A stretch of DNA of 64,000 nt from a virus. Taxonomy: Duplodnaviria; Heunggongvirae; Uroviricota; Caudoviricetes. The translations under genes were made by a program, and so were the position numbers. The notes beneath the pieces are model-generated. The model was not told where the DNA came from. It worked only from the letters and a program-made list of their open reading frames with translations, and did no database searches. Below, one piece after another: positions 1-63,807 of this stretch (its first letter is position 1; every line of letters starts with the position of its first letter). The stretch lies in the IMG/VR virus record IMGVR_UViG_3300034022_000539, one strand, 5' to 3'.

Positions 1-80
1 ACATATTCCTCTTTAGCTAAATCTCTGTATTGAAGCCTAGATTCAGTTGAGGTCCAATAATTTGTATTTTGTTCTTTCAT
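1..80 (-). CDS. possible 5'-partial gene start (ATG at 80-78, reading towards window edge; MKEQNTNYWTSTESRLQYRDLAKEEY...)
   Basis: Open frame runs from the ATG at 80 to the window edge. A TATAAT-containing AT-rich tract sits upstream at 95-115. Only 27 codons are visible. Confidence 0.25.
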   Translation of the reverse strand, partial: MKEQNTNYWTSTESRLQYRDLAKEEY

Positions 81-179
81 AATTCCTGTATTAATCATTA
101 TATGTTTCCTTTGCATTTAGTTTCATCTCTCATAGTTAGTTCAAGTCTCTGGGAAAATTAGATTTTGGGAAAATTTCAG

Positions 180-1000
180 CTAGGGAAAACCCCACCAAAC
201 GCTTCACACCATTAGGTACCCACATGGTCGTTCCGACCCAAATCTAGGCCCTGCTTAGTTTCTGGCACACTACTAATACACATGGATGTGGTATCCCAAT
301 TTCTATTCTGTACCAGTGATTGCTCTGGCCAACTCGCAGTTACTCTGATCCTCTTTAAATACCATTGGCGTGGACGTGTGACCATAGTAAGTCTTGGATA
401 GTCGCTGGGGTTTTTGGCATTCTGCAGGGTCAGTCTTGGTCTAGGTCACTGATTAGTTATATGGCTCAGATCAAGTGTGTAAGACACATCACTCTGTGTA
501 CTCTCTTTTTTTTCGCTGGTCCTTAAGGTATTCTGGTTCTTTAAGTACTAAGACATTTTAAGTGTCTAAGTGTCTAAGTTAATCCTCTATGGTTTATCTG
601 AGTACTCTGAATGCTCTGATACCTGGAAGTCATTTCTTGTCGCGCGCGCTTCATGTCGATCGGGCCCTTGGAGCTTAGTCCCCCGGGGACCCAATTTTTT
701 GGGAACCGGCGACATTGAACAAGTCGCGATTCTGTCGGGCCTGTCTGGCTCTTGAGTACTCTTTGTTTTGGGGGTATACAATCGAGGGTCTGATCCGAGT
801 CCTCTAAGTGGTTTGAGTTGTTTGGCGCCATGAATAGGCCCTGAAGCGCTGGCCCCGGGGCGAGATAGTTAACGCCCATAGTTGACAGTCGAAAATGCGC
901 TATAGCTAATATAGTAAGTGAAGGTCCATACCTTAAAATCGGCGTTTAATCGCGAGACATGCGCAATGCGCTTTTTAAAACCATGAATGGATCATGAGTG
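180..1000. repeat. GC-rich (~48% GC) noncoding island with multiple short palindromes (GCGCGCGC 642-649; GGGCCC 661-666; GTCCCCcGGGGAC 676-689; GCCCCGGGGC 852-861)
   Basis: No credible ORF is present. The three overlapping ORFs at 570-880 lie in different frames inside the GC tract. Composition contrasts sharply with the ~30% GC of the rest of the window. Palindromes are clustered. Confidence 0.6.
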
Positions 1001-1059
1001 CTTAGTGTCTTATATGCTCCATGTGTTATATTAGGCCTTTATATACTCTGAGGCTTATA

Positions 1060-1620
1060 GAGCTCTCATGTGTATATGCTATATGTGTATATGTTTATAC
1101 CCTATATGGTTAATTAGCTTTATTAGCTTTATTGCTCTATATGGCTTAATTAGCTTATTTGTCTTAATTGCGTACAGGCTAAGGCAGGTAAGCTCTGGCG
1201 TACTGTTGGTGCTCTAGGCTCTATAGAGCTCTGTAGCTCTCTGTCTCTCTACTGTTATTGGCTAATCAGCTGATACTGTTGGTGTGCTGGTGCTCTTGGT
1301 GTGTCTGTGCTCTCTGTAGTACCTATTAGCCTATTAGTCTATTGCTAATATTAGCTCTCTGGTGAATTATTAGTCCTCTGTAGATATTAGCGCTATATTT
1401 GCTTCCGGCGAGCGCTCTGGGAGCTTATTTGGACTTATTTAGCTCCTGGGAAGCTCCTGGTGACTATATTTAGCTCCCGGAGAGCTCCTGGGAAGCTTCC
1501 TGGGGCTTACTCTGGGGAAGCTCCTGGGGACTTACTCCTGGAAGCTTCCTGGGAGCGCTGCTGGCGCTAATCTTACCTCTGGCGTGAAATCCTACTTTAT
1601 ATGCTCCGGCGGGGCTTTTG
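1060..1620. repeat. degenerate tandem direct repeats (TATATGGYTAATTAGCTTWATT units 1095-1165; TACTGTTGGTG units 1200-1300; about 6 copies of GGGAAGCTCCTGG / GGAAGCTTCC 1400-1560)
   Basis: Short direct repeats and the palindromic cores GGAGCTCC / GGAAGCTTCC are visible by eye. The tract is noncoding. Confidence 0.6.
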
Positions 1621-1657
1621 TTTCAAAGTGATCTGGGTAGTCTGGGGTCCTTGCACG

Positions 1658-1673
1658 AAATGTTCGTAACTTT
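1658..1673 (+). promoter_or_regulatory. upstream box AAATGTTCGTAACTTT (TTGTTCGTAAC family), ~60 bp upstream of the -7 element
   Basis: This 11-mer occurs 9 times in the window, always at the head of a terminator/promoter module. Confidence 0.5.
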
Positions 1674-1716
1674 ACTAAAAATAAGTGCTTAAATATTTTT
1701 TTATTTGGATTATTAT

Positions 1717-1750
1717 GTGTATATTTACTCTATAATTAAAACACTAAACA
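1717..1750 (+). promoter_or_regulatory. conserved promoter cassette GTGTATATTTACTCTATAATTAAAACACTAAACA (TAnnTTTA -7-like element plus TATAAT), start codon 2 nt downstream
   Basis: A near-identical cassette is found upstream of 7 plus-strand genes and, reverse-complemented, upstream of several minus-strand genes. Confidence 0.7.
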
Positions 1751-1752
1751 AT

Positions 1753-2250
1753 ATGTCAAACATGATTTTTAACCAAGAGAAGATTAACCAAGTAGATTTT
1801 ATTAATGGCCGTACTGGTCAGTATAGAGCAGTAGTAAAAGTTAAAGCCGGTTTTATGACCGTAGTAGATGACTTAGGTATACAATGTAACTGGGCTTCAG
1901 GTGCCAGATGGAAGTCTGCCTTATCTGTATTCCAATCATTTAAACGTGGTGCTTTACAGACCATTGAATTTAAGGCTGATGGGTCTGACTCTTGGCTTAC
2001 TGTCTTTGCCCGTAAAGGTAATAAGATCATGTTAATGGACACTGATATGTTCTTAACTATGACTGTCGGTGATATTAACCAAGACTGGTCTACCACTAAC
2101 CTTTATAGTCAAGCTAACTATAAGATGGCTGGAGCTAAGACATGGGCTGATAAAGCCTTTGTTAGTAATACTGTTACTATAGAGGAGTTAAATCCTATTA
2201 TAGCTGGTGTTGACTTCTCTGAGTCTTTGGCTGCCTTAGCTGCTCTTTAA
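1753..2250 (+). CDS. hypothetical early protein (166 aa; MSNMIFNQEK...)
   Basis: The ORF lies immediately after the promoter cassette. The ORF-track start at 1705 runs into the promoter, so the MSN start at 1753 is preferred. The ATGTCAAA (MSK/MSN) start context is shared by sister genes. Confidence 0.65.
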   Translation: MSNMIFNQEKINQVDFINGRTGQYRAVVKVKAGFMTVVDDLGIQCNWASGARWKSALSVFQSFKRGALQTIEFKADGSDSWLTVFARKGNKIMLMDTDMFLTMTVGDINQDWSTTNLYSQANYKMAGAKTWADKAFVSNTVTIEELNPIIAGVDFSESLAALAAL

Positions 2251-2251
2251 G

Positions 2252-2268
2252 ATGTTCGTAACTTTTAT
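2252..2268 (+). promoter_or_regulatory. TTGTTCGTAAC-family upstream box (ATGTTCGTAACTTTTAT) directly after the stop codon
   Basis: Same conserved 11-mer as above. Confidence 0.5.
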
Positions 2269-2298
2269 CAGTTACCTATGTTCCATGTCATTTAAATT

Positions 2299-2333
2299 GT
2301 GTATATTTACTCTATAATTAAAACTTAAACAAT
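2299..2333 (+). promoter_or_regulatory. conserved promoter cassette (GTGTATATTTACTCTATAATTAAAACTTAAACAAT)
   Basis: The motif is identical to the cassette at 1717. Confidence 0.7.
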
Positions 2334-2729
2334 ATGTCAAAAATTAATCAATTCGATCGTCAGTCATTACGCGCACTTCGTGCAGATTTGGACTCAGCAA
2401 TGGCTGCCATTGCAACTAAGTATGGTATTCAGTTAAATGCTGGTAATATCTCATTCACATCAGATACTGCTACTATTAAAGTGGCTGCTGGTATTATCAA
2501 GAACGGTACAGCTGTTACTGCTGAAGCCAAAGCCTTTGATCAGTATAAGCGTATGGTAGGTCTGGGTCACTTAAGTGTTGGTGATAGCATTACTCTTCAA
2601 GGTAAAGCATATACCATCACTGGTTATAAGCCTCGCTCTAGTAAAGCGCCTGTATGTGTTGAACATCGTGGTCGTGGCTTTAAGGTGTCAGTTGACATGG
2701 TTAAGATGTACAACTCAGTGCCTGCCTAA
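2334..2729 (+). CDS. hypothetical early protein (131 aa; MSKINQFDRQ...)
   Basis: The ORF begins 0 nt after the cassette with the ATGTCAAA start. Confidence 0.65.
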   Translation: MSKINQFDRQSLRALRADLDSAMAAIATKYGIQLNAGNISFTSDTATIKVAAGIIKNGTAVTAEAKAFDQYKRMVGLGHLSVGDSITLQGKAYTITGYKPRSSKAPVCVEHRGRGFKVSVDMVKMYNSVPA

Positions 2730-2754
2730 CTGTTAATAACTTTTGTGAAAATAG

Positions 2755-2786
2755 GTTGACAATTGCTTTGGGTTGTCAACCTTTTC
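2755..2786 (+). terminator. hairpin GTTGACAA-ttgctttgg-TTGTCAAC followed by CTTTTC
   Basis: A perfect 8-bp inverted repeat with a 9-nt loop and T-rich tail lies 25 nt after the stop of the 2334-2729 gene. It overlaps the TTTGGGTTGTCA element of the next promoter. Confidence 0.5.
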
Positions 2787-2821
2787 ACGTATATTTACAT
2801 ATGAATTTAAAAATAAGACAC
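2787..2821 (+). promoter_or_regulatory. promoter cassette variant (CACGTATATTTACATATGAATTTAAAAATAAGACAC) driving small-RNA-like unit 1
   Basis: The TATATTTAC -7 element and spacing are conserved. Where the mRNA genes have a real ORF, this unit has the 2-codon mini-ORF ATG-AAG-TAG. Confidence 0.55.
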
Positions 2822-2945
2822 ATGAAGTAGATGCTTAAAAATCAAAAAAGAGGTAGCACCTCAACAAGGGTTCGCTTTTTTCTCGGAGCGCAGAGGGTAG
2901 ACTCCGACCTACGTGACACCCCCTCCCTCGATAGTGGTCCAAATG
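2822..2945 (+). ncRNA. candidate small RNA 1, paralogous to unit 2
   Basis: A 5' hairpin GAGGT-AGC-ACCTC (2852-2864) covaries with GGGAT-AAAA-TCCC in unit 2. The shared box GTAGACTCCGACCT is embedded in a CGGAG/CTCCG stem. The unit ends at the next TTGTTCGTAAC box. The apparent ORFs 2831-3022 and 3043-3237 share only nucleotide-level motifs and run into the next promoter. Confidence 0.4.
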
Positions 2946-2968
2946 TTCGTAACTTTTATGAAAATAAA
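2941..2968 (+). promoter_or_regulatory. TTGTTCGTAAC-family upstream box (AAATGTTCGTAACTTTTATGAAAATAAA)
   Basis: Conserved 11-mer plus the TTTTATGAAAATAA extension seen in other modules. Confidence 0.5.
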
Positions 2969-2998
2969 TGCGCAATTGTTTTGGGTTGTCATTTAAAT

Positions 2999-3030
2999 CA
3001 CGTATATTTACTATGTAATTAAAAATAAGC
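2999..3030 (+). promoter_or_regulatory. promoter cassette variant driving small-RNA-like unit 2
   Basis: Contains CACGTATATTTACTATGTAATTAAAAATAAGC, followed by the mini-ORF ATG-ACG-TAG. Confidence 0.55.
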
Positions 3031-3032
3031 TA

Positions 3033-3140
3033 TATGACGTAGATGACTAAAAATTCAAAAAGGGATAAAATCCCAACAGGGGCGGTCCTTTCAAAAGAAG
3101 GAGGAAGAGTAGACTCCGACCTGCTTTATATTTTTTTTAT
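3033..3140 (+). ncRNA. candidate small RNA 2 (contains AAGGAGG and a T8 run at 3131-3138)
   Basis: Same architecture as unit 1. The 5' hairpin GGGATAAAATCCC is at 3062-3074 and the conserved box TAGACTCCGACCT at 3109-3121. Confidence 0.4.
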
Positions 3141-3213
3141 AAAGGCTGTTCATAACTATGTTAATAACTTTATTGAATTATTTTTAGGGGCCTATGTCCG
3201 GTTAAAGAAATTT

Positions 3214-3250
3214 GTTGTATATTTACTGTATAATTAAAACACTAAAAGAT
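3214..3250 (+). promoter_or_regulatory. conserved promoter cassette (GTTGTATATTTACTGTATAATTAAAACACTAAAAGAT)
   Basis: Motif identity. Confidence 0.7.
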
Positions 3251-3568
3251 ATGTCAAACATCAAAGATCAAATTCAGTCATGGGTAGCTACCGAAGCTCA
3301 AGCTACTATTAATAACTACTATACTAAGGCATTGCCTAGTTTGCGTGTTCCAGAGCTTACCGTTAAATTTGGACAGAAATATGCCCAAGTCTGGAATGGT
3401 ACTACTATATGGGCTTTTATTGCTTTAACTGATGAGGTTGCCAAAGCACAACGTGTAGGTGACTTATTGAAGCCTGCTTCGTGGAGGGCTCCAGCTAAAC
3501 ATAGTCGTGGTAACATTATTGAAGGTACCGCTGCTTATGGTCCTTATGGTCCAGAGTACATAAAATAA
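3251..3568 (+). CDS. hypothetical early protein (105 aa; MSNIKDQIQS...)
   Basis: The start was moved from 3212, which lies inside the promoter, to the conserved ATGTCAAA context. It ends PYGPYGPEYIK. Confidence 0.65.
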   Translation: MSNIKDQIQSWVATEAQATINNYYTKALPSLRVPELTVKFGQKYAQVWNGTTIWAFIALTDEVAKAQRVGDLLKPASWRAPAKHSRGNIIEGTAAYGPYGPEYIK

Positions 3569-3612
3569 TTTGAAAATACTTGTCTAAATATTTTTTTATG
3601 TCGAGTATTATG

Positions 3613-3647
3613 TGTATATTAGCTTTATAATTAAAAACAAACAGATC
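3613..3647 (+). promoter_or_regulatory. conserved promoter cassette variant (GTGTATATTAGCTTTATAATTAAAAACAAACAGATC)
   Basis: Motif identity. Confidence 0.65.
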
Positions 3648-4025
3648 ATGCCTTATATTTCAAAAGAACAAGTTAAAGTAAAACGAGAAGCCCTTAAGAA
3701 AGCCTTACCTCAGTTTAAGATGTCTATTACTACTGATAACTATAGTGGTATTAAAGTGGCTATCATGAAAGGTCCAGTTGATTTCGGTATTGAGTATGCT
3801 CAGTTAAATGAGTATGCTGATTATCGCGAACCACGTTGGGACAGAGACACTGAACAATATGTGTCCAATCCAGCTATAGCTGACCTAATGGAGACTGTGA
3901 TGCCTATCTTAAATGATGGTATGCGTGAAGGTCATGATGATAGTGATTATGGTCATATACCTGATTACTATACTTGGGTTCATATTGGTCAATGGGATAA
4001 AGCCTACGAGGTGGTTAATGCGTAA
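3648..4025 (+). CDS. hypothetical early protein (125 aa; MPYISKEQVKVKREALKK...)
   Basis: The start was moved from 3612, in the promoter, to the first ATG after the cassette. Confidence 0.6.
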   Translation: MPYISKEQVKVKREALKKALPQFKMSITTDNYSGIKVAIMKGPVDFGIEYAQLNEYADYREPRWDRDTEQYVSNPAIADLMETVMPILNDGMREGHDDSDYGHIPDYYTWVHIGQWDKAYEVVNA

Positions 4026-4359
4026 ACTTAAAAAGTCTGATGTTAATGCTGATACACTGATGAGGTGGTCTAATCGTAAGTTAGGTCCCTCTAGGTGCAA
4101 ACGTATATTGATTGTAGATCGTAAAAGCCCTGATTACGGTTGGTATGATTGGCATGGTACAGTCTACATCAATATACGCAATATTAGTTCTATGACTTCA
4201 GTATACAGAACTATGGCGCACGAATGGACTCATGCTCAACAAACATATGGTCGGTATAATGCCTATCATAAGAAGCATGGCTATAAAAACAATCCATATG
4301 AGGTTGCTGCCCGCCGGAGAGAAAGAACTTGCTTTAGTGAATTGTTCGTAACTTTATAG
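4018..4359 (+). CDS. putative small HExxH zinc-metallopeptidase-like protein (113 aa; ...TMAHEWTHAQQ...)
   Basis: The ATG overlaps the stop of the previous gene (ATGCGTAA). It carries an HEWTH motif. The ORF-track version starting at 3913 is an N-terminal hydrophobic frame-extension. Confidence 0.45.
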   Translation: MRKLKKSDVNADTLMRWSNRKLGPSRCKRILIVDRKSPDYGWYDWHGTVYINIRNISSMTSVYRTMAHEWTHAQQTYGRYNAYHKKHGYKNNPYEVAARRRERTCFSELFVTL

Positions 4360-4366
4360 AAAATAA
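4341..4366 (+). promoter_or_regulatory. TTGTTCGTAAC-family upstream box (ATTGTTCGTAACTTTATAGAAAATAA), overlapping the end of the 4018-4359 gene
   Basis: Conserved 11-mer. Here it encodes the C-terminal LFVTL*. Confidence 0.5.
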
Positions 4367-4398
4367 TTCACAAAAAGCTTTGGGTTGTCGTTTATATC

Positions 4399-4434
4399 GT
4401 GTATATTTACTCTATAATTAAAACACTAACAGAT
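4399..4434 (+). promoter_or_regulatory. conserved promoter cassette (GTGTATATTTACTCTATAATTAAAACACTAACAGAT) with TTTGGGTTGTCG -33-like element 19 bp upstream
   Basis: Motif identity. Confidence 0.7.
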
Positions 4435-4737
4435 ATGTCAAAAGAAACAATTTTAGTCCACACTCAATTTTACGAAAACTACAACGTCGGTCCTGATGGA
4501 TTCGGTGAAACTCCATCTTGGAAAGCCAAAGGTGGTCATACCTTCTCAATTGAGATGGATGCTGATCTTTTAATGTACTCTGACTCTAAGGCTATTTTTA
4601 GCAAAATGTTAGAGATGCATAACACTATTGCAGAGCGTTTTGAATATATAGAGTATGAAATTCAATGGTCTAAACCAAGTCTTCTTGGGTATCAGGCTGA
4701 TTATATAGCAGCTAACGAGGCTTTACAAACAGCCTAA
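4435..4737 (+). CDS. hypothetical early protein (100 aa; MSKETILVHTQFYENYNVG...)
   Basis: The ORF follows the cassette. The start was moved from 4399. Confidence 0.65.
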   Translation: MSKETILVHTQFYENYNVGPDGFGETPSWKAKGGHTFSIEMDADLLMYSDSKAIFSKMLEMHNTIAERFEYIEYEIQWSKPSLLGYQADYIAANEALQTA

Positions 4738-4790
4738 TCTTTTTTTGAAACAATTCATAATTTAACCATATAAAAATAAAAACAAATCTT

Positions 4791-5942
4791 ATGTCAGCAA
4801 TCGCAACATTATCATCAGCAGTTCTTGAAAATCGTAGAGCTGAAACACGTAACTCTCAGTCAATTCGTAAAACTGTATCAGTACGTGATATTAACCTTGT
4901 TAACGATACAACTATCGAGTATCAAGGTAAACGTCTAGAGATTACATCAGACGCATTCAAGTCTCTTATGAAATTGATCGGTATGTCAGCAACCTTTGCT
5001 GCTAAGTTCGAATCTCTATTTAACCCTGAGACCAAAGCAAAATTCGTTAACCAAATGAAAAACGCTATGGCAGCTCAGTTGAATGAGATCACCATTATAT
5101 TGTCTCCACAGACTAAGAAGGTAGTTGGTTTCTCTAAGAATGCAACAGACCTTATTTCTCACGAACGTTTCATTTCATTGGCTGATCAAATTATCGATCA
5201 ACATGGCTTTGAAGTTACCAATTGGGGTGTAGATGCTACTAAAGGTTCAGTTATTATCAATGCTTTTAATCCTAAGGCACAATTTGACCTTGCAGGTCTT
5301 GGTTTAGCCAATGAGGTTTTCACCGCTGGTGTTACTCTTAAGAATTCACCTTTCGGAGGTATACAAGTTATGCCTTATGTTAACAGAATGTTCTGTACGA
5401 ATGGCTTAACTACAGGATTGGCTAGCGAATCTTATTCACTATCTAATTTAAATCCTGAATCGATGGAGAACTTTCACCAACATATGAGTCAATTGCGTAA
5501 GAATGGATTTGTACCTACTAATTTTGCTGAAACTGTGAAATTGGCTACTCAAACTCCAGCTTCTCTATGGGAAATGGAACGTGCATATAGTTCAATCAAA
5601 CCAATGGTTGGCGCACAAGCTGACTCTTGGATCCCTTTGAATGATAACTACTCAGCGTATACTAAAGCAGGTATGATGCCAGAAGGTTTCTCAGCTGCTC
5701 AAAAGAAAAACGCACGTACTGATCAATCAATCTGGTCATTGGTAAATGGTATGACTCACGTCGCTACACATGCACCAGAACAATTAGCATTTAACATGAC
5801 TGATAGAGAATCTACAGACTTGATGGTTAAAGCTGGTGGTATCTTCGGTAAGCAATTTGATTTAGGTAACACAATTCGTTCACCTTTCAAAGCAGATGCT
5901 CACTTAGAGGCTGAAATGCAAGTAGGAGCTTTATTAAACTAA
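4791..5942 (+). CDS. hypothetical protein (383 aa; MSAIATLSSAVLENRRAETR...)
   Basis: A long ORF, unusual in AT-rich DNA. Its own AT-rich promoter-like tract is at 4745-4790 and a strong terminator lies downstream. Confidence 0.7.
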   Translation: MSAIATLSSAVLENRRAETRNSQSIRKTVSVRDINLVNDTTIEYQGKRLEITSDAFKSLMKLIGMSATFAAKFESLFNPETKAKFVNQMKNAMAAQLNEITIILSPQTKKVVGFSKNATDLISHERFISLADQIIDQHGFEVTNWGVDATKGSVIINAFNPKAQFDLAGLGLANEVFTAGVTLKNSPFGGIQVMPYVNRMFCTNGLTTGLASESYSLSNLNPESMENFHQHMSQLRKNGFVPTNFAETVKLATQTPASLWEMERAYSSIKPMVGAQADSWIPLNDNYSAYTKAGMMPEGFSAAQKKNARTDQSIWSLVNGMTHVATHAPEQLAFNMTDRESTDLMVKAGGIFGKQFDLGNTIRSPFKADAHLEAEMQVGALLN

Positions 5943-5948
5943 AAACTC

Positions 5949-6011
5949 GTAACCTCATCCAGATCACAGACAATCGAAACTGTAAAATGGAGCTGTTGAA
6001 GATGAGGTTAC
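5949..6011 (+). other. long inverted repeat GTAACCTCATC...GATGAGGTTAC (11-bp arms, ~41-nt loop) in the 3' UTR
   Basis: The arms are perfectly complementary. Function is unknown (RNA structure or processing site). Confidence 0.4.
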
Positions 6012-6086
6012 TATGAAAACTGGGAGTATGGTTAGAGCAGCGTAAATTCTAGATAGCATTAAGACTCACGACCTAAGTCCCTTCCA

Positions 6087-6117
6087 AGCCGGTACTACAT
6101 GTACCGGCTTTCTTTTT
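6087..6117 (+). terminator. rho-independent terminator AGCCGGTAC-tacat-GTACCGGCT + TTCTTTTT
   Basis: A perfect 9-bp stem with a 5-nt loop is followed by a T-run. Confidence 0.8.
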
Positions 6118-6199
6118 GCTCCAAAGGCTGCCATTGGTGAATTATTTTCGCTTTTTTATGAAAATAAACGCAAATAAGCTTTGGGTTGTCATTTATTAT

Positions 6200-6235
6200 G
6201 TGTATATTTACCTTATAATTAAAACACTAACAGAT
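6200..6235 (+). promoter_or_regulatory. conserved promoter cassette (GTGTATATTTACCTTATAATTAAAACACTAACAGAT), TTTG 19 bp upstream of TATATTTA
   Basis: Motif identity. Confidence 0.7.
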
Positions 6236-6430
6236 ATGAAAGTCACAGTCAACATTTTACCATTTTTAGGAGCCTTAGTTATGGGTTTCATTAGTTACTC
6301 TATTATGCAAGGTACTGCTCAAGAAGTGGTTCATTTTGCGGGTGTATTAAACGAGATCTTCACATTGGTTATGGCCATGATGATGACCTTAGGTCTTTTG
6401 ATAATGTCAATCTCAAAGGCTGCCAAATAA
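6236..6430 (+). CDS. small membrane protein (64 aa, two predicted TM helices; MKVTVNILPFLGALVMGF...)
   Basis: The start was moved from 6116, in the promoter, to the first ATG after the cassette. The protein is hydrophobic. Confidence 0.55.
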   Translation: MKVTVNILPFLGALVMGFISYSIMQGTAQEVVHFAGVLNEIFTLVMAMMMTLGLLIMSISKAAK

Positions 6431-6449
6431 ATTGTTCGTAACTTTTACC
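6431..6449 (+). promoter_or_regulatory. TTGTTCGTAAC-family upstream box
   Basis: Conserved 11-mer directly after the stop codon. Confidence 0.5.
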
Positions 6450-6476
6450 TAATTTATTTTGGGTTGTCAAATAAAA

Positions 6477-6514
6477 GTTGTATATTAGCTCTATAATTAA
6501 AAGTCAAACACTAT
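6477..6514 (+). promoter_or_regulatory. conserved promoter cassette variant (GTTGTATATTAGCTCTATAATTAAAAGTCAAACACTAT)
   Basis: Same variant as the minus-strand modules at 36108, 58014 and 63722. Confidence 0.7.
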
Positions 6515-7657
6515 ATGTCAAAATCATCTTACACAATTCACAAATTAGAGGCTGTTCCTAATAAGAAGCCTAATTTCAATCTTAAAAATATTGCTGATTC
6601 CGAGGACCAAGTCCTGATCACAGCAGAAAATCCTAAGTATGCCTATGTAGCAGAAAATCAGGGTCGTATTATTAACATCAACGGAGTTATGGCTTCAGGT
6701 GTTTTAAAGATGACCTCATCAGCTGACTACTATGATGCTTATGGTCTTAAACAAAAAACCAAGGTTGAGGTAGCCGCACCTAAAGCAGCTCCACTTAAAA
6801 TCTCATTAACCAAGTTAGATGACCTTAATTTCTCTGACGAGTTATTTAACCCTCTAACTACTGGTTTGGCAATAGACCAATTCTTATCTAATGACGGTGG
6901 CTTTATGCCAGGTTCAAACATCATGGCTGCAGGTGCACCGGGTGTAGGTAAGACTACAGTTCTTTTAGAAACCTTATACGCAGTACAAAAGCAAGATCCT
7001 ACCAAGCGTGTGCTGTTCATCTCAGCTGAAATGAACCAATTGGACATGGCTAGATACCTAAAAAGATTCCCACATTGGGGTCAGTTACCAATCTTATTCT
7101 TAAGTGACTATGTTGACCAAGATCCTCAAGCCGTAATAGAGCAAACATTGCAACAAGGTTGGGACATAGTCTTAACAGATAGTTACACCGAGGTGAATGA
7201 CACAGTTAAAGAAGCTTGTAACATGACCAGAGGTAAAACTGAAAAGTGGTTCTTGGACATGATGATTGCCAATAACCAAGGTAAGAACCAAACCAAGAAG
7301 TATACTACCTTCATCACCATTTTACAGTTATCTAAGGGTGGTACATTCGTCGGGTCCAACAAACTAAAACACATGACCACAGCCATGCTAGAATTAAACT
7401 GGAAAGGCAATGAGAATTCAGCTGAGCGTTATATGGAATTCAGTAAGAACCGTTTAGGCCAAGTAGGTCATAAGTTATTCTTTGACTTTACAGACGGAGT
7501 TAGTTTTGACACCAAGAGATACAAGCGAGATCTACTTAACTTGGAATTAATTGAGGATGAGAGAGCTAAGCTGACATCAGAAGAGGATAGCTTTGACCGT
7601 CTTTTCGGTGCTATACCTAATGAAAGTGACTCCACCCCGGCGGTAGAAGTAAACTAA
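6515..7657 (+). CDS. RecA-superfamily P-loop ATPase (DnaB-helicase/RadA/Sak4-like), 380 aa
   Basis: Has a Walker A motif GAPGVGKTT followed by VLFISAEM, resembling the DnaB/RadA-type motif, and a Walker B-like IVLTDSY. Confidence 0.6.
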   Translation: MSKSSYTIHKLEAVPNKKPNFNLKNIADSEDQVLITAENPKYAYVAENQGRIININGVMASGVLKMTSSADYYDAYGLKQKTKVEVAAPKAAPLKISLTKLDDLNFSDELFNPLTTGLAIDQFLSNDGGFMPGSNIMAAGAPGVGKTTVLLETLYAVQKQDPTKRVLFISAEMNQLDMARYLKRFPHWGQLPILFLSDYVDQDPQAVIEQTLQQGWDIVLTDSYTEVNDTVKEACNMTRGKTEKWFLDMMIANNQGKNQTKKYTTFITILQLSKGGTFVGSNKLKHMTTAMLELNWKGNENSAERYMEFSKNRLGQVGHKLFFDFTDGVSFDTKRYKRDLLNLELIEDERAKLTSEEDSFDRLFGAIPNESDSTPAVEVN

Positions 7658-7659
7658 TT

Positions 7660-8375
7660 GCTCATTGGGCTCAGTGGAGCTCTTCAAATAATATCCGACC
7701 CGGCGGAGACATAGCACCGGGGCTTTTAATTATATCATGGGAGGCTTTGACACCTCCGTGCCCACACCAGACCTGACTAGTTTGGTGTTGTGGGATCCAG
7801 GGAGCTGACAGGGCTGTGGGAGCCTCTGGAGTGTGTATGTGTTAGCGTTCGCGTTTGACTCATCTCCTGGCGCACCGCAACACCAATGAACGATACTAAT
7901 AAGCGCTATATATCTGATCCCCTGGGGACCTTACTGGATACGAGTTCGTTTTAAATTGTGGGGTTTGGTATTCTTACCACTTTTTACCACTTTATACCAC
8001 TAAATACCATAACGGGGCTTAAAACCTTAAAAGGGCTTAAAAGAGACGCTAAGGCGCTCCATTGGTGGTGGGACCATTACCATTTTTGTCTATTGGTATA
8101 TCTGGTCTTTATTGCCCATACTATATAAGGGATTGCTAGAAGGATTACTATGTATATCATATTGGTTTATCTGGTATCTGGGTTAGGGTTTGAGTTTATC
8201 CTTATCCCTTTGGAATTATCTTATATCTATCTAGTCTATTAGGATATGGTGTTTATTGTGTTGGTAGCGCGCGTTTTGGTTATGCTGGTTTTGATGGAAA
8301 TAATTGGGTTGGGTTGCGTGCAAAAAAAAGACCTCTTAATTAGAGGCCTTCTGTGTGTGTATTGTGTGTGTTTGA
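7660..8375. repeat. second GC-enriched noncoding island with palindromes and iteron-like repeats. TCCCCtGGGGA at 7921-7931. Four phased ~11-bp repeats TACCACT at 7975-8020. GGGCTTAAAA x2 at 8024-8052. TATCTGG repeats at 8095-8185. GT-rich run at 8350-8372.
   Basis: No ORF. The short direct repeats sit at helical-repeat spacing. The tract lies between convergent plus-strand and minus-strand gene blocks. Confidence 0.6.
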
Positions 8376-9065
8376 TTATACGCTATAACCTTCACCTTTT
8401 AAATAGTCTGTAACATCGTTAAGTGCATCTTCAAATCCTTTAGAAGATTCAACACCAGCATTAGGTCCCCATTCTTGATCCATCCAATCTTCTAATGAAG
8501 ACCACATACTATCTTTCCAGTCTTTGTTTTTTGGAAATTCATCCATAAATTCATCTCCAATATTATAAGAGTCAATATCAGACCATTTTTTCTTTTCGTT
8601 TAATGTTTTAGAAAATTGTTCGAATAGTTTAATGTGTTTCATTCCGTGTTTGGTACTCGATGTGTTTGATTCATTAATATCGTATCCATCCCAGTCCCAT
8701 TTGTAACCTTTACCATCAGCAGCTGTACCTTGATAACCATACATTCCTTTTGTAAATCCATCAAAGAATATAGCAACTCCATTGTCTTCAAGCTCTTGAG
8801 CTTTTTCTCTTGCAGCATCTTCATCGATGGCTTCAACTGTAACATCACCATTGTATACTATGTATAAGATTCCTTTATCAAATGTTAATTCAGCTCCATG
8901 GAACCATTCTTCACCATCATTTTCTTCGTCATTCATTGGTTCTTCACCCATTTCGAAGTTAGGTATTTGTGAGAGTCCAAATTTTAGAGCCTCTTTTTCT
9001 GTTTTATAGAAATTTACTTGAGAATAATCAGGTGCATTTTCTGCTACGTAATATACTTTTGCCAT
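8376..9065 (-). CDS. leader-family protein, apparent fusion: a 141-aa leaderless N-part plus a C-part that begins with an internal MKHIKLFEQF leader (Met142, ATG at 8642)
   Basis: The conserved leader sits in the middle of a continuous ORF. This could be a lost stop codon or an internal start. Confidence 0.5.
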   Translation of the reverse strand: MAKVYYVAENAPDYSQVNFYKTEKEALKFGLSQIPNFEMGEEPMNDEENDGEEWFHGAELTFDKGILYIVYNGDVTVEAIDEDAAREKAQELEDNGVAIFFDGFTKGMYGYQGTAADGKGYKWDWDGYDINESNTSSTKHGMKHIKLFEQFSKTLNEKKKWSDIDSYNIGDEFMDEFPKNKDWKDSMWSSLEDWMDQEWGPNAGVESSKGFEDALNDVTDYLKGEGYSV

Positions 9066-12326: not shown

Positions 12327-13208
12327 TTATATATCATAATCTTCTATTGTTTCAGGACGAGTCCATCTTCTAAGATCACCTATCCAATCTTCTAATCTAT
12401 AAGGGTGTTCCCAATATGGTGGTTTAGGTATGGTTAGTTTAGGTACTTTTAATCTATCACCATCTCTGGCTTCTAACCATTTGGTTTTCTTTTTAAGCTT
12501 TTTTACTATTTGTAGTAGAGTTACTTTGTCTTCAGAGTGCAGCGCCCATTCACCATTAATAGGTAAAAGATCATGACGAGTACATGCTAATGCAATTGAT
12601 TCTACTCTTGTAAAGATTCTTATTTGAGTTCCAGGTTCAACGATAGTTATTGCTTGTTGATTCTTGATTTGATTTTCCCATATACCTAAGACAGTTGCGT
12701 ATGCACCTTCTGTAATTTGTCCAGGTCCATATGCATTAAAGAAATAAAATATGTGTGATTTAAGATTGCTCCATTTTTGGTGCTTTTTAATAAGATCTAC
12801 ATTTTGTTTTTTGTACCAACTATATGGTGAAAGATCTTGATCTTTTTGTCCAAAATGTGATGAAGATGCTGAATAAATTAGGATTGCATTTTGATTTATA
12901 GCTAATCTTATAATTTGACTAGTTCCTTCAACACATGAAGATTGCACCTTTTCTATTTCTTGATATGATTGATGTATACGAGAATATTCTCCAAAGTGGT
13001 AGATTTTATCAATCTCAAATCTTTCTAGTAATCGAAGAGCATCTTGAGTTCTACCTTCTATATACTGTACACCTTGAATATGATTAGATTTTAGGCCAGT
13101 AGAATAATCATCTAGTGAAACTATTTTTGTATGCGGTTTCTCAGTAAGCAATGACTTAATAAGATGTGTTCCGATGAATCCTGCTCCTCCTGTTACTAAT
13201 GTATACAT
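12327..13208 (-). CDS. NAD(P)-dependent sugar epimerase/dehydratase (SDR, Rossmann TGGAGFIGTHL), 293 aa
   Basis: Has the N-terminal GxxGxxG Rossmann motif typical of UDP/GDP-sugar epimerases/dehydratases. It is first in an operon of glycan genes. Confidence 0.75.
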   Translation of the reverse strand: MYTLVTGGAGFIGTHLIKSLLTEKPHTKIVSLDDYSTGLKSNHIQGVQYIEGRTQDALRLLERFEIDKIYHFGEYSRIHQSYQEIEKVQSSCVEGTSQIIRLAINQNAILIYSASSSHFGQKDQDLSPYSWYKKQNVDLIKKHQKWSNLKSHIFYFFNAYGPGQITEGAYATVLGIWENQIKNQQAITIVEPGTQIRIFTRVESIALACTRHDLLPINGEWALHSEDKVTLLQIVKKLKKKTKWLEARDGDRLKVPKLTIPKPPYWEHPYRLEDWIGDLRRWTRPETIEDYDI

Positions 13209-35992: not shown

Positions 35993-36107
35993 AGTTTTAA
36001 ATTTAATTGGTTAATATTGTTAATGTACACGAAAAAAACGACATAAAAAACTATTTATCGTTTATTTTCAATTTATTCATACTATTTATATGAAAGCTTC
36101 TAATTTT

Positions 36108-36131
36108 GTTTTAATTATAGAGCTAATATAC
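36108..36131 (-). promoter_or_regulatory. promoter cassette on minus strand (GTATATTAGCTCTATAATTAAAAC)
   Basis: Reverse complement matches the plus-strand cassette at 6477. Confidence 0.65.
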
Positions 36132-36139
36132 AAAAAAAA

Positions 36140-36161
36140 GCCCAAACTAAAAAATTTGGGC
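36140..36161 (-). terminator. rho-independent terminator GCCCAAA-ttttttag-TTTGGGC + T8
   Basis: A 7-bp stem followed by an 8-T run (minus-sense), downstream of the 1192-aa gene. Confidence 0.8.
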
Positions 36162-36170
36162 TTAATTATT

Positions 36171-36192
36171 TTCATAAAAGTTGCGAACAATT
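36171..36192 (-). promoter_or_regulatory. TTGTTCGCAAC upstream box (variant of TTGTTCGTAAC) + TTTTATGAA
   Basis: Same module order as on the plus strand. Confidence 0.45.
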
Positions 36193-57787: not shown

Positions 57788-57800
57788 TTTTAATTGTTTT

Positions 57801-57830
57801 TAATTGTTATAGGGTAAATATACATATAAT
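57801..57830 (-). promoter_or_regulatory. promoter cassette on minus strand (ATTATATGTATATTTACCCTATAACAATTA...AAAAC)
   Basis: Reverse complement nearly identical to the plus-strand cassette GTATATTTACCTTATAATTAAAAC. Confidence 0.65.
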
Positions 57831-57853
57831 TTTCGACATAAAAAAATATATTT

Positions 57854-57873
57854 TAATAAAGTTACGAACAATC
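57854..57873 (-). promoter_or_regulatory. TTGTTCGTAAC upstream box; its TAA is the stop codon of the 47-aa ORF
   Basis: Conserved 11-mer. Confidence 0.5.
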
Positions 57874-58005: not shown

Positions 58006-58013
58006 GATCTACT

Positions 58014-58037
58014 GTTTTAATTATAAGGCTAATATAC
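58014..58037 (-). promoter_or_regulatory. promoter cassette on minus strand (GTATATTAGCCTTATAATTAAAAC)
   Basis: Motif identity. Confidence 0.65.
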
Positions 58038-58045
58038 TAAAAAAA

Positions 58046-58067
58046 GCCCAAACTAAAAAATCTGGGC
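58046..58067 (-). terminator. rho-independent terminator GCCCAGA-ttttttag-TTTGGGC + T7
   Basis: Hairpin plus T-run. It is paralogous to the terminator at 36140. Confidence 0.8.
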
Positions 58068-58077
58068 TTAACTATTT

Positions 58078-58098
58078 TTAAAAAAGTTACGAACAATT
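58078..58098 (-). promoter_or_regulatory. TTGTTCGTAAC upstream box
   Basis: Conserved 11-mer. Confidence 0.5.
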
Positions 58099-63711: not shown

Positions 63712-63721
63712 ATTGATTAGT

Positions 63722-63745
63722 GTTTTAATTATAAGGCTAATATAC
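63722..63745 (-). promoter_or_regulatory. promoter cassette on minus strand (GTATATTAGCCTTATAATTAAAAC)
   Basis: Motif identity. Confidence 0.65.
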
Positions 63746-63754
63746 TAAAAAAAA

Positions 63755-63776
63755 GCCAAACAAAAAAATGTTTGGC
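63755..63776 (-). terminator. rho-independent terminator GCCAAACA-ttttttt-GTTTGGC + T8
   Basis: A 7-8-bp stem plus a T-run (minus sense). Confidence 0.8.
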
Positions 63777-63788
63777 TGATTATTTTTT

Positions 63789-63807
63789 AAAAAGTTACGA
63801 ACATTTG
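63789..63807 (-). promoter_or_regulatory. TTGTTCGTAAC upstream box (CAAATGTTCGTAACTTTTT), containing the stop codon of the partial gene
   Basis: Conserved 11-mer. Confidence 0.5.

What the first reader, a model, noticed from the sequence alone, without database searches (positions are those of the whole stretch)
1658..6514. Highly stereotyped ~100-bp transcription module repeated at least 12 times on both strands
Each module has the same order: TTGTTCGTAAC box, TTTTATGAAAATAA, an optional GC hairpin plus T-run, TTTG(-33-like), GTGTATATT(T/A)(A/G)C(T/C)(C/T)TATAATTAAAAC, and the ATG 2-4 nt downstream. The 11-mer TTGTTCGTAAC occurs 9 times in 64 kb, against a chance expectation of about 0.03. 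It sits at a nearly fixed ~60 bp (occasionally ~50) upstream of the TATATTTA element, even when a terminator hairpin is inserted between them. That makes it look like an activator or sigma-appropriator binding site rather than part of the terminator. In several cases it overlaps the stop codon (...C-S-stop). The TTTG plus 19 bp plus TAnnTTT(A/G) arrangement matches the Bacteroidetes sigma-A consensus (by established knowledge -33 TTTG and -7 TAnnTTTG). There is no Shine-Dalgarno sequence. Leaders are about 10-20 nt.
Basis: partly seen in the sequence, partly recalled or inferred. Interest (0 to 1): 0.6.

Follow-up and report, generated by a model that had tools for sequence, protein, structure and literature searches.

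The report
Stereotyped promoter cassettes of a jumbo phage
A large uncultured marine phage that probably infects Bacteroidota puts an almost identical ~90-bp control cassette (upstream palindromic box, optional terminator hairpin, Bacteroidetes-type promoter, short A-rich leader) in front of its small accessory genes and two small RNAs; this looks like the Bacteroidota counterpart of the promoter-terminator cassettes known from T4-type phages.

Summary
The repeat is real. A profile search finds 13 modules plus 1 degenerate copy in the window: 9 on the + strand at 1660-6514 and 4 on the - strand. The composite pattern (box A, 36-50 nt, TATATTWR) occurs 11 times against 0 expected.

Each module fills one intergenic gap, in this order:
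- Box A, TGTT(CG/AA)TAAC, an imperfect palindrome at or inside the upstream stop codon.
- A T/A-rich block.
- A hairpin, strong in about a third of family copies, whose T-rich loop lies at -33.
- TATATTTA or TATATTAG, a 7/8 match to the Bacteroidetes -7 element TAHHTTTG.
- A Y-R step 5 nt further on, which is the predicted start site.
- A 19-23 nt A-rich leader containing TAAAA and no Shine-Dalgarno sequence.

Three details in the finding are wrong. The ATG lies 9-13 nt (not 2-4) after AAAA. The start site is probably the A of TATAAT, not AAAAC. The exact 11-mer occurs 4 times, not 9.

Box A lies 38, 48, 59 or 69 bp from the -7 box, which is helical phasing. Box-A promoters almost never carry the consensus TTTG. 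The same architecture recurs in a widespread family of ~240-kb marine phages, where gene-content differences abut the modules and neutral positions are homogenised within each genome.

Best reading: host sigma-A early promoter/terminator cassettes that depend on a factor binding box A, analogous to PeSLs. A phage-specific RNA polymerase or sigma factor is not excluded.

The parts
1660..1752 (+). Module 1. Box A at 1661-1670, T-run/-33 at 1697-1700, -7 box TATATTTA at 1720-1727, predicted TSS at 1732, ATG at 1753 (165-aa ORFan). It is the first gene after the 1.5-kb non-coding region.
2252..2333 (+). Module 2. Box A at 2253-2262 (49-bp class), -7 box at 2302-2309, predicted TSS at 2314, ATG at 2334 (131 aa).
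2730..2801 (+). Module 3. Box A variant TGTTAATAAC at 2731-2740, strong hairpin at 2754-2781 (-22 kcal/mol), TTTG at 2767-2770, -7 box at 2790-2797, predicted TSS at 2802. It drives a non-coding RNA (about 2802-2941).
2943..3014 (+). Module 4. Box A at 2944-2953, TTTG at 2980-2983, -7 box at 3003-3010, predicted TSS at 3015. It drives the second, paralogous non-coding RNA (about 3015-3150, ending in an AT hairpin plus T-run).
3147..3250 (+). Module 5. Tandem box A copies TGTTCATAAC at 3147-3156 and TGTTAATAAC at 3159-3168, -7 box at 3218-3225, predicted TSS at 3230, ATG at 3251 (105 aa, DUF7717-like).
3569..3647 (+). Module 6, without box A. T-run at 3592-3595, -7 box TATATTAG at 3615-3622, predicted TSS at 3627, ATG at 3648 (125 aa, LPD29-like).
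4342..4434 (+). Module 7. Box A at 4343-4352, TTTG at 4379-4382, -7 box at 4402-4409, predicted TSS at 4414, ATG at 4435. It drives the conserved 100-aa and 383-aa gene pair.
6140..6235 (+). Module 8. Box A is degenerate (TTATTTTCGCTTTT). TTTG at 6180-6183, -7 box at 6203-6210, predicted TSS at 6215, ATG at 6236 (64-aa membrane protein). A separate terminator lies upstream at 6086-6110.
6432..6514 (+). Module 9. Box A at 6433-6442 (48-bp class), TTTG at 6458-6461, -7 box TATATTAG at 6481-6488, predicted TSS at 6493, ATG at 6515 (380-aa DnaB/RecA-like ATPase).
63712..63804 (-). Module 10. Box A at 63803-63794, which supplies the stop codon of ORF 63795-63971 (..KCS*). Terminator hairpin GCCAAACA/TGTTTGGC plus T8, -7 box at 63744-63737, predicted TSS at 63732, ATG at 63711. 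It heads a ~5-kb operon of small genes.
58006..58096 (-). Module 11. Box A at 58095-58086, terminator hairpin AGCCCAGA/TTTGGGCT plus T7 (-15.6 kcal/mol), -7 box at 58036-58029, predicted TSS at 58024, ATG at 58005 (47-aa basic protein). It lies just downstream of the tRNA-Ala gene. It is also an indel breakpoint relative to the 92%-identical relatives L015 and L054.
57788..57871 (-). Module 12. Box A at 57870-57861, which supplies the stop codon of the 47-aa gene (KKDCS*); 48-bp class. -7 box at 57822-57815, predicted TSS at 57810, ATG at 57787 (86-aa lipoprotein-like).
36081..36190 (-). Module 13. Box A variant TGTTCGCAAC at 36189-36180, directly after the stop codon of the 1192-aa gene. Terminator hairpin (-16.7 kcal/mol), -7 box at 36130-36123, predicted TSS at 36118.
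35993..36056 (-). Degenerate 14th promoter copy (T-run, ATGTCG, GTACATTAAC), directly upstream of the 195-aa gene that starts at 35992.
   Evidence: E=0.0036

Best explanation
Each module is a compact, self-contained expression cassette of a ~240-kb phage that infects Bacteroidota. [quoted passage not shown]

Parts of a module, 5' to 3':
1. Box A, consensus AAnTGTT(CG/AA)TAACnTT, an imperfect palindrome.
2. A T/A-tract block.
3. A stem-loop. In about a third of copies it is a real intrinsic terminator for the upstream gene. Its T-rich loop and 3' arm double as the -33 region.
4. A -7 element, TATATTTA or TATATTAG.
5. A Y(-1)R(+1) start site 5 nt downstream.
6. A leader of about 20 nt, (A/G)UAAUUAAAAC..., that carries the Flavobacterium-type TAAAA(A) ribosome-binding signal instead of a Shine-Dalgarno sequence.

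How it most likely works: the host RNA polymerase with the Bacteroidetes primary sigma factor initiates at these sites. The -7 element is deliberately one base short of consensus, so full activity depends on a dimeric DNA-binding factor bound to box A. That factor sits on the same face of the helix, one to four turns upstream of the -33 region (class-I-activator geometry).

A second role: because the cassettes are near-identical, they also serve as homologous-recombination sites. Single-gene cassettes (ORFans, anti-defence-type genes, small RNAs) are gained, lost and reordered at them, and the cassettes are homogenised within each genome.

Shown here: the anatomy, copy number, phasing, family-wide conservation, and indels that abut modules.

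Inferred: the identity of the polymerase, the start site, the role of box A, and the timing of expression (early).
For: Match to the host promoter type:
- The -7 box matches 7 of 8 positions of TAHHTTTG. The F. johnsoniae rule is a start site 4-5 nt downstream, a weak -33 element, and AT-rich blocks (PMC6847099). T-rich or TTTG sequence lies at -35..-32 in 11 of 13 modules.
- The position predicted as +1 is a purine preceded by T. It switches A<->G between lineages while the flanks stay fixed: TATAAT in the window and L150, TGTAAT in L147 and L143-146.

Match to Bacteroidota translation signals:
- 2 of 79 genes have a Shine-Dalgarno-like motif. A makes up 63-70% of bases at -10..-14 and 65% at -3.
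- The leader contains TAAAA (PMC6028130).
- Relatives encode a protein with a T9SS sorting domain, and the window encodes an SprB repeat. Both point to a Bacteroidota host.

The core works with host machinery:
- The same 22-mer, but with consensus TTTG, occurs in unrelated phage contigs. It also occurs in about 10 Bacteroidota chromosomes, always 0-12 nt before an ATG.

Box A is tied to the promoter:
- 11 of 12 window copies of box A lie in modules.
- Distances from box A to the -7 box fall at 38, 48-49, 57-59 and 69 bp in 60 unique family modules. A Rayleigh statistic over 33 sequence-distinct spacers peaks at a period of 10.3-10.5 bp, R=0.92.
- Box-A promoters carry TTAG (33) or TTTA (31) and almost never TTTG (2). 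Promoters with the same core but no box A mostly carry TTTG: 40 of 43 TTTG copies lack box A.

Terminator function:
- Hairpins of -13 to -22 kcal/mol followed by T7-8 occur in modules 2790, 63744, 58036 and 36130, and in about a third of 58 family modules.

Cassette behaviour:
- Nearly every gene in 1660-6514 has its own module.
- Relatives L147 and L150 have the same layout but a different set and order of genes between modules.
- An indel against the 92%-identical relatives starts exactly at module 58036.
- The three unconstrained bases between the -7 box and TRTAAT, and the centre of box A, are uniform within a genome and differ between genomes.

No phage polymerase found:
- No RNA polymerase or sigma domain was detected in 64 window ORFs or in 47 large ORFs from family loci.
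Against: - No promoter in the box-A family has the TTTG that is 'nearly invariant' in F. johnsoniae promoters.
- Conservation extends from -13 to about +6 (TRTAAT). That extension is not seen in a small sample of 13 putative host promoters.
- Only one perfect TAHHTTTG sits in a sense-strand intergenic position elsewhere in the window, so this phage makes little use of textbook host promoters.
- The genome is jumbo-sized, and only about a quarter of it was inspected for polymerase genes. Divergent phage polymerases often escape Pfam.
- The 10-bp quantisation could partly reflect modules being assembled from ~10-nt blocks (the AAAATAA block, the 5' hairpin arm) rather than selection for helical phase.
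- No binding protein for box A was identified.
- There are no expression data of any kind.
Confidence: 0.55

Rival explanations
1. The conserved core, GTATATT(AG/TA)-N3-TRTAAT, is the promoter of a phage-encoded transcription machine rather than of unmodified host sigma-A holoenzyme. Candidates are a virion or non-virion multisubunit RNA polymerase, a single-subunit polymerase, or a phage sigma-like factor that redirects the host core enzyme. On this reading the resemblance to TAnnTTTG is partial or coincidental.
For: - Jumbo phages that encode RNA polymerases characteristically show a bioinformatically obvious AT-rich motif of about 10 nt, centred near -10, upstream of early operons (PMC7598289).
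- The family genome is about 240 kb.
- The motif is conserved over about 20 bp, which is typical of promoters read by phage polymerases.
- The consensus TTTG is absent from 64 of 66 box-A promoters.
- Perfect host-type promoters are nearly absent elsewhere in the window.
- A second, different promoter-like motif (GATATATAAT) precedes genes on the - strand. This suggests more than one promoter specificity.
Against: - No RNA polymerase or sigma domain was found in the window or in about 0.4 Mb of related loci. This is weak evidence, because coverage is partial.
- The same 22-mer with perfect TTTG is used by unrelated small phage contigs and by Bacteroidota chromosomes just upstream of ATGs.
- The -33 T-run at 19 bp and the C at -4 fit host promoters.
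- Both core variants coexist within one genome, so there is no strict co-evolution between a polymerase and its promoter.
Confidence: 0.22
2. The promoter is read by host RNA polymerase, but box A is not a transcription-factor site. Instead it is one of the following: the 5' boundary or recombination signal of the mobile cassette; an RNA element in the 3' UTR of the upstream message (processing, stability or antitermination signal ahead of the hairpin); or an UP-element-like contact for the alpha subunit.
For: - Box A always sits at or inside the upstream stop codon, that is, at the cassette edge and within the upstream transcript.
- In hairpin-bearing modules it lies about 15-25 nt before the terminator stem.
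- It is followed by T/A tracts at the position of an UP element.
- Two modules work, or at least are conserved, without it (3615, 6203).
- Its central dinucleotide changes genome-wide, as expected under gene conversion.
Against: - The distance to the -7 box is quantised with a period of about 10.4 bp across spacers of unrelated sequence. This is expected for a DNA-level interaction with the polymerase and is not needed for an RNA element or a recombination site.
- The sequence is G/C-containing and palindromic, unlike UP elements.
- Its presence is associated with a sub-consensus -7 element.
Confidence: 0.15
3. The modules are selfish repeats (MITE-like or other dispersed elements) with no regulatory role.
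For: - There are many near-identical copies.
- Concerted evolution occurs within genomes.
Against: - All 13 copies are co-oriented with the downstream gene.
- All end 19-23 nt before a start codon or at the 5' end of a conserved small RNA.
- They have no terminal inverted repeats or target-site duplications.
- They contain recognisable promoter, terminator and ribosome-binding signals.
- They are conserved across lineages diverged to about 50-70% protein identity.
Confidence: 0.03

Closest known systems
PeSLs (promoter-early stem-loops) of T4-type phages (Arbiol et al. 2010, PMC2839356; Comeau et al. 2014, PMC4122927)
   Same: [quoted passage not shown]
- Both combine a strong host-type early promoter, an AT-rich upstream block, a stem-loop terminator/attenuator and the ribosome-binding signal.
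- Both are clustered in a region of small ORFan genes, each with its own cassette.
- In both, differences between related genomes map to the cassettes.
   Different: - The host system differs: a Bacteroidetes -33/-7 promoter and a TAAAA leader, instead of a sigma-70 -35/-10 promoter and a Shine-Dalgarno sequence.
- The phage lineage is unrelated.
- The stem-loop overlaps the -33 region.
- The promoter element is systematically one base off consensus.
- There is an extra conserved palindromic box A at helically phased positions, which PeSLs lack.
- Mini-circle formation was not testable here.
Bacteroidetes primary-sigma (sigma-ABfr) promoters: -33 TTTG / -7 TAnnTTTG, refined to TAHHTTTG in F. 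johnsoniae (Baez et al. 2019, PMC6847099)
   Same: - T-12, A-11, T-8 and T-7 are present in all copies.
- A T-rich or TTTG element lies 19 bp upstream.
- The spacer is AT-rich.
- A purine lies at the predicted +1.
- The mRNA has a leader, lacks a Shine-Dalgarno sequence, and has A at -3 and from -10 to -14.
   Different: - T-6 or G-5 is substituted in every copy (TTAG or TTTA).
- Additional conserved blocks are not part of the host consensus: G-13, TGTCAA at -28..-23, and TRTAAT at -1..+5.
Class I activator-dependent promoters (e.g. CRP sites centred at -61.5, -71.5, -82.5); established knowledge
   Same: - A short inverted repeat is centred at about -45, -56, -66 or -77.
- These positions are spaced by whole helical turns upstream of a sub-consensus core promoter.
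   Different: - No binding protein is known.
- The half-sites are very short (GTT-N3-AAC, extended to AAnTGTT..TAACnTT).
- Nothing comparable has been described for the Bacteroidetes transcription apparatus.
T4 MotA/AsiA sigma appropriation (MotA box at -30); established knowledge
   Same: A phage-specific box upstream of a host-type -10-like element.
   Different: Box A is 25-45 bp further upstream, and the -33 T-run is kept, so the geometry does not fit.
Early promoters of jumbo phages read by the virion RNA polymerase (review: PMC7598289)
   Same: A highly conserved AT-rich motif in front of early operons of a jumbo phage.
   Different: - No phage polymerase was detected.
- The motif matches the host -7 element and is embedded in host-type -33 and leader signals.

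Membership tests
Bacteroidetes sigma-A (-33/-7) promoter | -7 element TAHHTTTG, with T-12, A-11, T-8, T-7, T-6 and G-5 nearly invariant | tested here: inconclusive
   All 13 copies match 7 of 8 positions (TATATTTA in 8 copies, TATATTAG in 5). None has TTTG. In the family the counts are 33 TTAG, 31 TTTA and 2 TTTG.
Bacteroidetes sigma-A (-33/-7) promoter | -33 element TTTG about 19 bp upstream (weak in F. johnsoniae) | tested here: met
   Positions -35..-32 read TTTG in 5 copies, TTTT in 6 and something else in 2. The family consensus is aTTTTtt at -37..-31.
Bacteroidetes sigma-A (-33/-7) promoter | Transcription starts 4-5 nt after the -7 element and depends on host holoenzyme | not testable with these tools
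   Only indirect evidence is available: a conserved T(-1)R(+1) step at that position, with A/G variation between lineages.
Bacteroidetes-type translation initiation region | No Shine-Dalgarno sequence; A-rich leader with A at -3; TAAAA(A) about 7 nt from the start codon in Flavobacterium | tested here: met
   2 of 79 genes have a Shine-Dalgarno-like motif. A is 65% at -3 and 63-70% at -10..-14. 46 of 79 genes have TAAAA or AAAAA at -20..-4. In the modules TAAAA ends 9-13 nt before the ATG.
PeSL-type composite promoter-terminator cassette | Occupies the whole intergenic gap from stop codon to start codon and contains promoter, stem-loop and ribosome-binding signal | tested here: met
   Strong hairpins occur in 4 of 13 window copies and in about a third of 58 family copies; the rest are weak or decayed.
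PeSL-type composite promoter-terminator cassette | Clustered with small ORFan genes in a plastic region; indels and replacements between related genomes are bounded by the cassettes | tested here: met
   Nine modules lie within 4.9 kb. Gene sets and orders differ between the window, L147 and L150, while the modules cross-align. The indel against L015/L054 starts at the core of module 58036.
PeSL-type composite promoter-terminator cassette | Member of the T4-like phages, with a sigma-70 consensus promoter; forms mini-circles | tested here: not met
   Sigma-70-type promoter matches are not above chance: 23 found against 25.2 expected. No T4-like genes were detected. Mini-circles are not testable. 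The modules are therefore an analogue of PeSLs, not a member.
Jumbo-phage virion-RNAP early promoter | The phage encodes multisubunit RNA polymerase subunits | tested here: inconclusive
   No RNAP or sigma Pfam/PHROG hits were found in the window or in 47 large ORFs of relatives. Only about 64 kb of about 240 kb was seen, and such subunits are highly divergent.
MotA-type sigma appropriation | Activator box centred at -30 that replaces the -35 element | tested here: not met
   Box A spans -71..-62 or -60..-51, and the -33 T-run is retained.
Class I activator site | Inverted repeat on a fixed helical face upstream of the core promoter | tested here: met
   Distances fall at 38, 48-49, 57-59 and 69 bp. 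Periodicity is maximal at 10.3-10.5 bp, R=0.92 over 33 distinct spacers. The palindrome is AAnTGTTnnTAACnTT. Binding itself is not testable.

The most novel reading that the evidence does not exclude
Box A together with the never-consensus -7 element defines a phage-private promoter class in an abundant family of marine Bacteroidota jumbo phages. Either of two mechanisms could apply. A dedicated factor, virion-delivered or host-derived, bound at helically phased box A sites could be required to switch on all accessory-gene cassettes. Alternatively, a so-far undetected phage sigma factor or RNA polymerase could read the 20-bp core. In both cases the phage would have a transcription programme insulated from host promoters, in a phylum whose transcription apparatus is poorly studied. 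The same cassettes would act as the vehicle for gene shuffling.
Probability: 0.3. Interest if true: 0.65.

Novelty: new variant of a known kind. Interest (0 to 1): 0.45.

Why it matters
- Little is known about how phages of Bacteroidota, a dominant marine and gut phylum with an unusual sigma factor and no Shine-Dalgarno usage, organise transcription.
- These cassettes offer a ready-made, compact and apparently strong promoter/leader/terminator unit for Flavobacteriia genetics.
- They define a testable candidate operator (box A) for an unknown regulator.
- They extend the PeSL idea, that regulatory cassettes double as recombination modules for accessory and anti-defence genes, to an unrelated and globally distributed family of ~240-kb phages.
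- They also mark the 5' ends of a conserved phage small-RNA family.

Tried and rejected
- Rfam at gathering threshold on the whole window, and at E<=1 on 1-8400: only the tRNA-Ala was found. Nothing matched the modules or the small RNAs.
- Megablast of 1500-8000 against GenBank phages: no match.
- tblastn with early and structural proteins: the only hit was a distant 484-kb uncultured phage, LR756508. Its homologous region has no box A and no module, so it was dropped.
- Treating the TATAAT inside the core as a sigma-70 -10 hexamer, with a start site at AAAAC: rejected. The hexamer is TGTAAT or TATAAC in relatives. It has no -35 partner at 16-18 bp. Sigma-70-type matches are at chance level.
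- TTGTCA at -29..-24 as a -35 element: rejected, because it lies only 11-12 bp from TATATT.
- Searches for RNA polymerase or sigma genes: Pfam and PHROG on 83 window ORFs and 47 large ORFs from relatives, and phmmer against the PDB for the 1192-aa, 811-aa and 383-aa proteins. Nothing was found.
- AlphaFold model of the conserved 383-aa early protein (pLDDT 74), searched against the PDB with Foldseek: no match at E<0.05. No function was assigned and no link to box A emerged.
- Literature searches for the motif, or for promoters of Flavobacterium jumbo phages: nothing relevant.
- Consensus fold of the five small-RNA homologues: only two short helices, too few sequences for covariation.

Full report

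Yes. The core TATATTWRCYYTATAATTAAAA occurs 11 times with <=3 mismatches, against 0.11 expected. GTATATTWRC occurs 15 times against 1.08 expected. TGTTMRTAAC occurs 12 times against 1.1 expected, and 11 of those copies lie in modules. The composite pattern, box A followed after 36-50 nt by TATATTWR, occurs 11 times against 0.00 expected.

A profile built from family modules finds 13 copies in the window at E<=2e-4, plus one degenerate copy. Nine are on the + strand between 1660 and 6514. Four are on the - strand, with -7 boxes at 63744, 58036, 57822 and 36130.

Corrections to the finding:
- The ATG lies 9-13 nt after AAAA, not 2-4 nt.
- The exact 11-mer occurs 4 times. The 10-mer TGTTCGTAAC occurs 8 times, with 3 further variants.
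- TTTG is present at -33 in 5 of 13 modules and TTTT in 6.
- Two modules lack box A.
- Modules 2790 and 3003 drive no ORF. They drive two paralogous non-coding RNAs.

**2. Context**

The window is phage DNA. It encodes a collagen-like tail fibre, an endolysin, a portal-like protein and many auxiliary genes.

Genes at 1753-7657 are on the + strand. They follow a ~1.5-kb GC-rich, repeat-laden non-coding region at 100-1650. Everything from 8376 onward is on the - strand.

Translation signals are of the Bacteroidota type. Only 2 of 79 genes have a Shine-Dalgarno-like motif. A makes up 63-70% of bases at -10..-14 and 65% at -3. This matches Baez et al. 2019 and the Flavobacterium TAAAAA motif reported with GeneMarkS-2. 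An SprB repeat in the window and a T9SS sorting domain in a relative point the same way.

The conserved 383-aa early protein has 481 homologues in marine and other metagenomes. Three ENA contigs of 239.7-240.9 kb carry it at different offsets. The genome is therefore about 240 kb, and the family is widespread and uncultured. The only relative in GenBank phages is distant and lacks the modules.

**3. Anatomy**

Numbering is relative to the predicted start site.

- *Box A.* AAnTGTT(CG/AA)TAACnTT lies at -71..-62, or at -60..-51. It sits directly after the upstream stop codon or supplies it, as in ..KDCS* and ..KCS*.
- *T/A block.* TTTTATGAAAATAA is present in the 59-bp class.
- *Stem-loop.* Its loop is the T-run at -37..-31. 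Its 3' arm is TGTCAA or TTTGGC at -28..-23. Modules 63744, 58036, 36130 and 2790 have stems of -13 to -22 kcal/mol followed by T7-8. About a third of 58 family modules have strong stems, and the rest look like decayed versions of them.
- *-7 box.* G-13 is followed by TATATTTA or TATATTAG at -12..-5.
- *Spacer.* Three variable bases.
- *Start region.* T(-1), R(+1), then TAAT.
- *Leader.* ...TAAAAC plus about 10 nt, then the ATG. Leaders are 19-23 nt long.
- *First codons.* These are often stereotyped as ATG TCA AA.

**4. What reads it?**

In F. johnsoniae the -7 element TAHHTTTG occupies -12..-5. The start site lies 4-5 nt further on, the -33 element is weak, and the spacer has AT-rich blocks. 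The modules match 7 of 8 positions at the right distance from a T-rich or TTTG -33 region.

The predicted +1 is a purine preceded by T. That position varies A/G between lineages while its flanks are fixed: TATAAT in the window and L150, TGTAAT in L147 and L143-146. This fits a start site and argues against a sigma-70 -10 hexamer. Sigma-70-type matches are at chance level.

The 22-mer with a perfect TTTG occurs in other, unrelated phage contigs. It also occurs in about 10 Bacteroidota chromosomes, each time 0-12 nt before an ATG. The core is therefore compatible with host machinery.

No RNA polymerase or sigma gene was detected in the window or in about 0.4 Mb of relatives. This is only weak negative evidence.

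Three points count against a plain host promoter:
- The consensus TTTG is essentially never used in box-A promoters: 33 TTAG, 31 TTTA and 2 TTTG.
- Conservation runs from -13 to +6, and TRTAAT is not seen in a small sample of host promoters.
- Perfect host-type promoters are almost absent elsewhere in the window.

I therefore favour host sigma-A holoenzyme (confidence 0.55 for the whole best explanation). I keep a phage-specific polymerase or sigma factor as a serious rival (0.22), in line with what is known for jumbo phages.

**5. Box A**

Box A is confined to the modules and is an imperfect palindrome. It lies at quantised distances from the -7 box: 38, 48-49, 57-59 and 69 bp in 60 unique family modules. 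Periodicity is maximal at 10.3-10.5 bp, with R=0.92 over 33 spacers of distinct sequence.

Its presence goes with a sub-consensus -7 element. Promoters that share the downstream core but lack box A mostly carry TTTG.

This is the geometry of a class I activator site. It is not sigma appropriation, because a MotA box sits at -30.

Caveats:
- The modules are homologous, so the distance classes are not fully independent.
- The ~10-nt steps coincide with the presence or absence of discrete blocks.
- No binding protein was found.
- An RNA-level role or a recombination role is not excluded.

**6. Cassette behaviour**

In the + strand region almost every gene has its own module. Several of these genes carry domains typical of early injected or anti-defence 'polyvalent' proteins: LPD29, DUF7717 and a DUF6782-like metallopeptidase.

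Relatives L147 (212-kb contig) and L150 (240 kb) show the same layout: a GC-rich non-coding region followed by module-flanked small genes. The gene sets and orders differ, however, and the small-RNA unit sits in a different place. The modules cross-align with one another, while coding regions align only with their orthologues.

Against the 92%-identical relatives, an extra gene begins exactly at the core of module 58036, and that module's hairpin has been replaced.

Positions under no obvious constraint are uniform within a genome and differ between genomes. These are the three bases between the -7 box and TRTAAT (CTC, TAG or TAC) and the centre of box A (CG or AA). This indicates homogenisation by recombination.

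These are the defining behaviours of PeSLs in T4-type phages, here in an unrelated phage with a different promoter grammar.

**7. Verdict**

The box A idea is plausible as an activator site, not as sigma appropriation.

The feature is a new variant of a known kind: a composite early promoter/terminator cassette. It has an additional phased operator-like box and a systematically sub-consensus -7 element. Interest is moderate.

Noticed in passing
window 2802-2941 and 3015-3153 (+); L147 8433-8535; L049 7466-7605; L010 2234-2134 (-); L150 ~8750: Two tandem paralogous non-coding RNAs of about 130 nt, each driven by a module. They share an invariant 3' motif, GTAGACTCCGACCT. One hairpin shows a compensatory change (GAGGtagcaCCTC against GGGAtaaaaTCCC). 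Homologues follow module promoters in at least four relatives. There is no Rfam match. This is a candidate new family of phage small RNAs.
   Followed up: partly
window 100-1650; L147 6300-7640; L150 6186-7740: A non-coding region of about 1.5 kb lies between divergent transcription units. It is GC-rich (42% against about 31%) and dense in short repeats (GCTCCTGGG, CTCTG, TATTAGC). Its position is conserved in relatives. It may be a replication origin, a genome terminus or a regulatory hub.
   Followed up: no
window - strand: 12326, 17422, 35395, 40551 (exact); 28937, 45099 (1 mismatch): A second promoter-like motif, GATATATAAT, lies 20-40 nt upstream of - strand genes, often right after a terminator hairpin. 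It has no -33/-7 resemblance. It is a candidate middle or late promoter class. The overall count with 1 mismatch is not above chance, but all exact copies lie just upstream of genes.
   Followed up: partly
window 7658-8375: A 718-bp convergent intergenic gap between the + and - strand blocks. It has an odd C/A-rich composition and several hairpins. Relative to L150, the window carries about 4 kb of extra genes next to this junction.
   Followed up: no
window 1753, 2334, 3251, 4435, 6515 (start codons): The first codons after the modules are stereotyped (ATG TCA AAx, giving M-S-K/N). The heptamer ATGTCAA also recurs at -29..-23 inside many modules. On the opposite strand it creates a fortuitous TTGACA-N16-AATTAT pattern.
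   Followed up: no
IMG/VR loci such as L005, L008, L009, L011, L025, L031, L040, L048: A different and very common family of small phage contigs carries a single copy of the same 22-mer with a perfect TATATTTG. It lies behind its own hairpin plus T-run and lacks box A. Composite terminator-promoter units therefore seem to be general in Flavobacteriia phages.
   Followed up: partly
window 3648-4359; 3251-3568: The early genes carry LPD29, DUF7717 and DUF6782-like metallopeptidase signatures. These domains come from 'polyvalent' proteins of mobile elements and suggest anti-defence cargo. All three genes are absent from relative L147.
   Followed up: partly
window 4791-5942: The 383-aa early protein is the most conserved gene of the region. 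It has 481 homologues and 66-99% identity among the top 120. It has no Pfam, PDB-sequence or Foldseek match, although the model is usable (pLDDT 74).
   Followed up: yes
window 39803-40234, 40610-41356, 12327-13208, 16149-17396, 46616-49822: Auxiliary genes are present: a probable Hc1 histone-H1-like protein with an N-terminal membrane helix, sugar epimerases, and large glycosyltransferases. A KdsA-like DAHP_synth_1 hit was also found in the window, tentatively placed at 40610-41356. The 415-aa glycosyltransferase is 42-47% identical to those of Xanthomonas and Stenotrophomonas jumbo phages.
   Followed up: no
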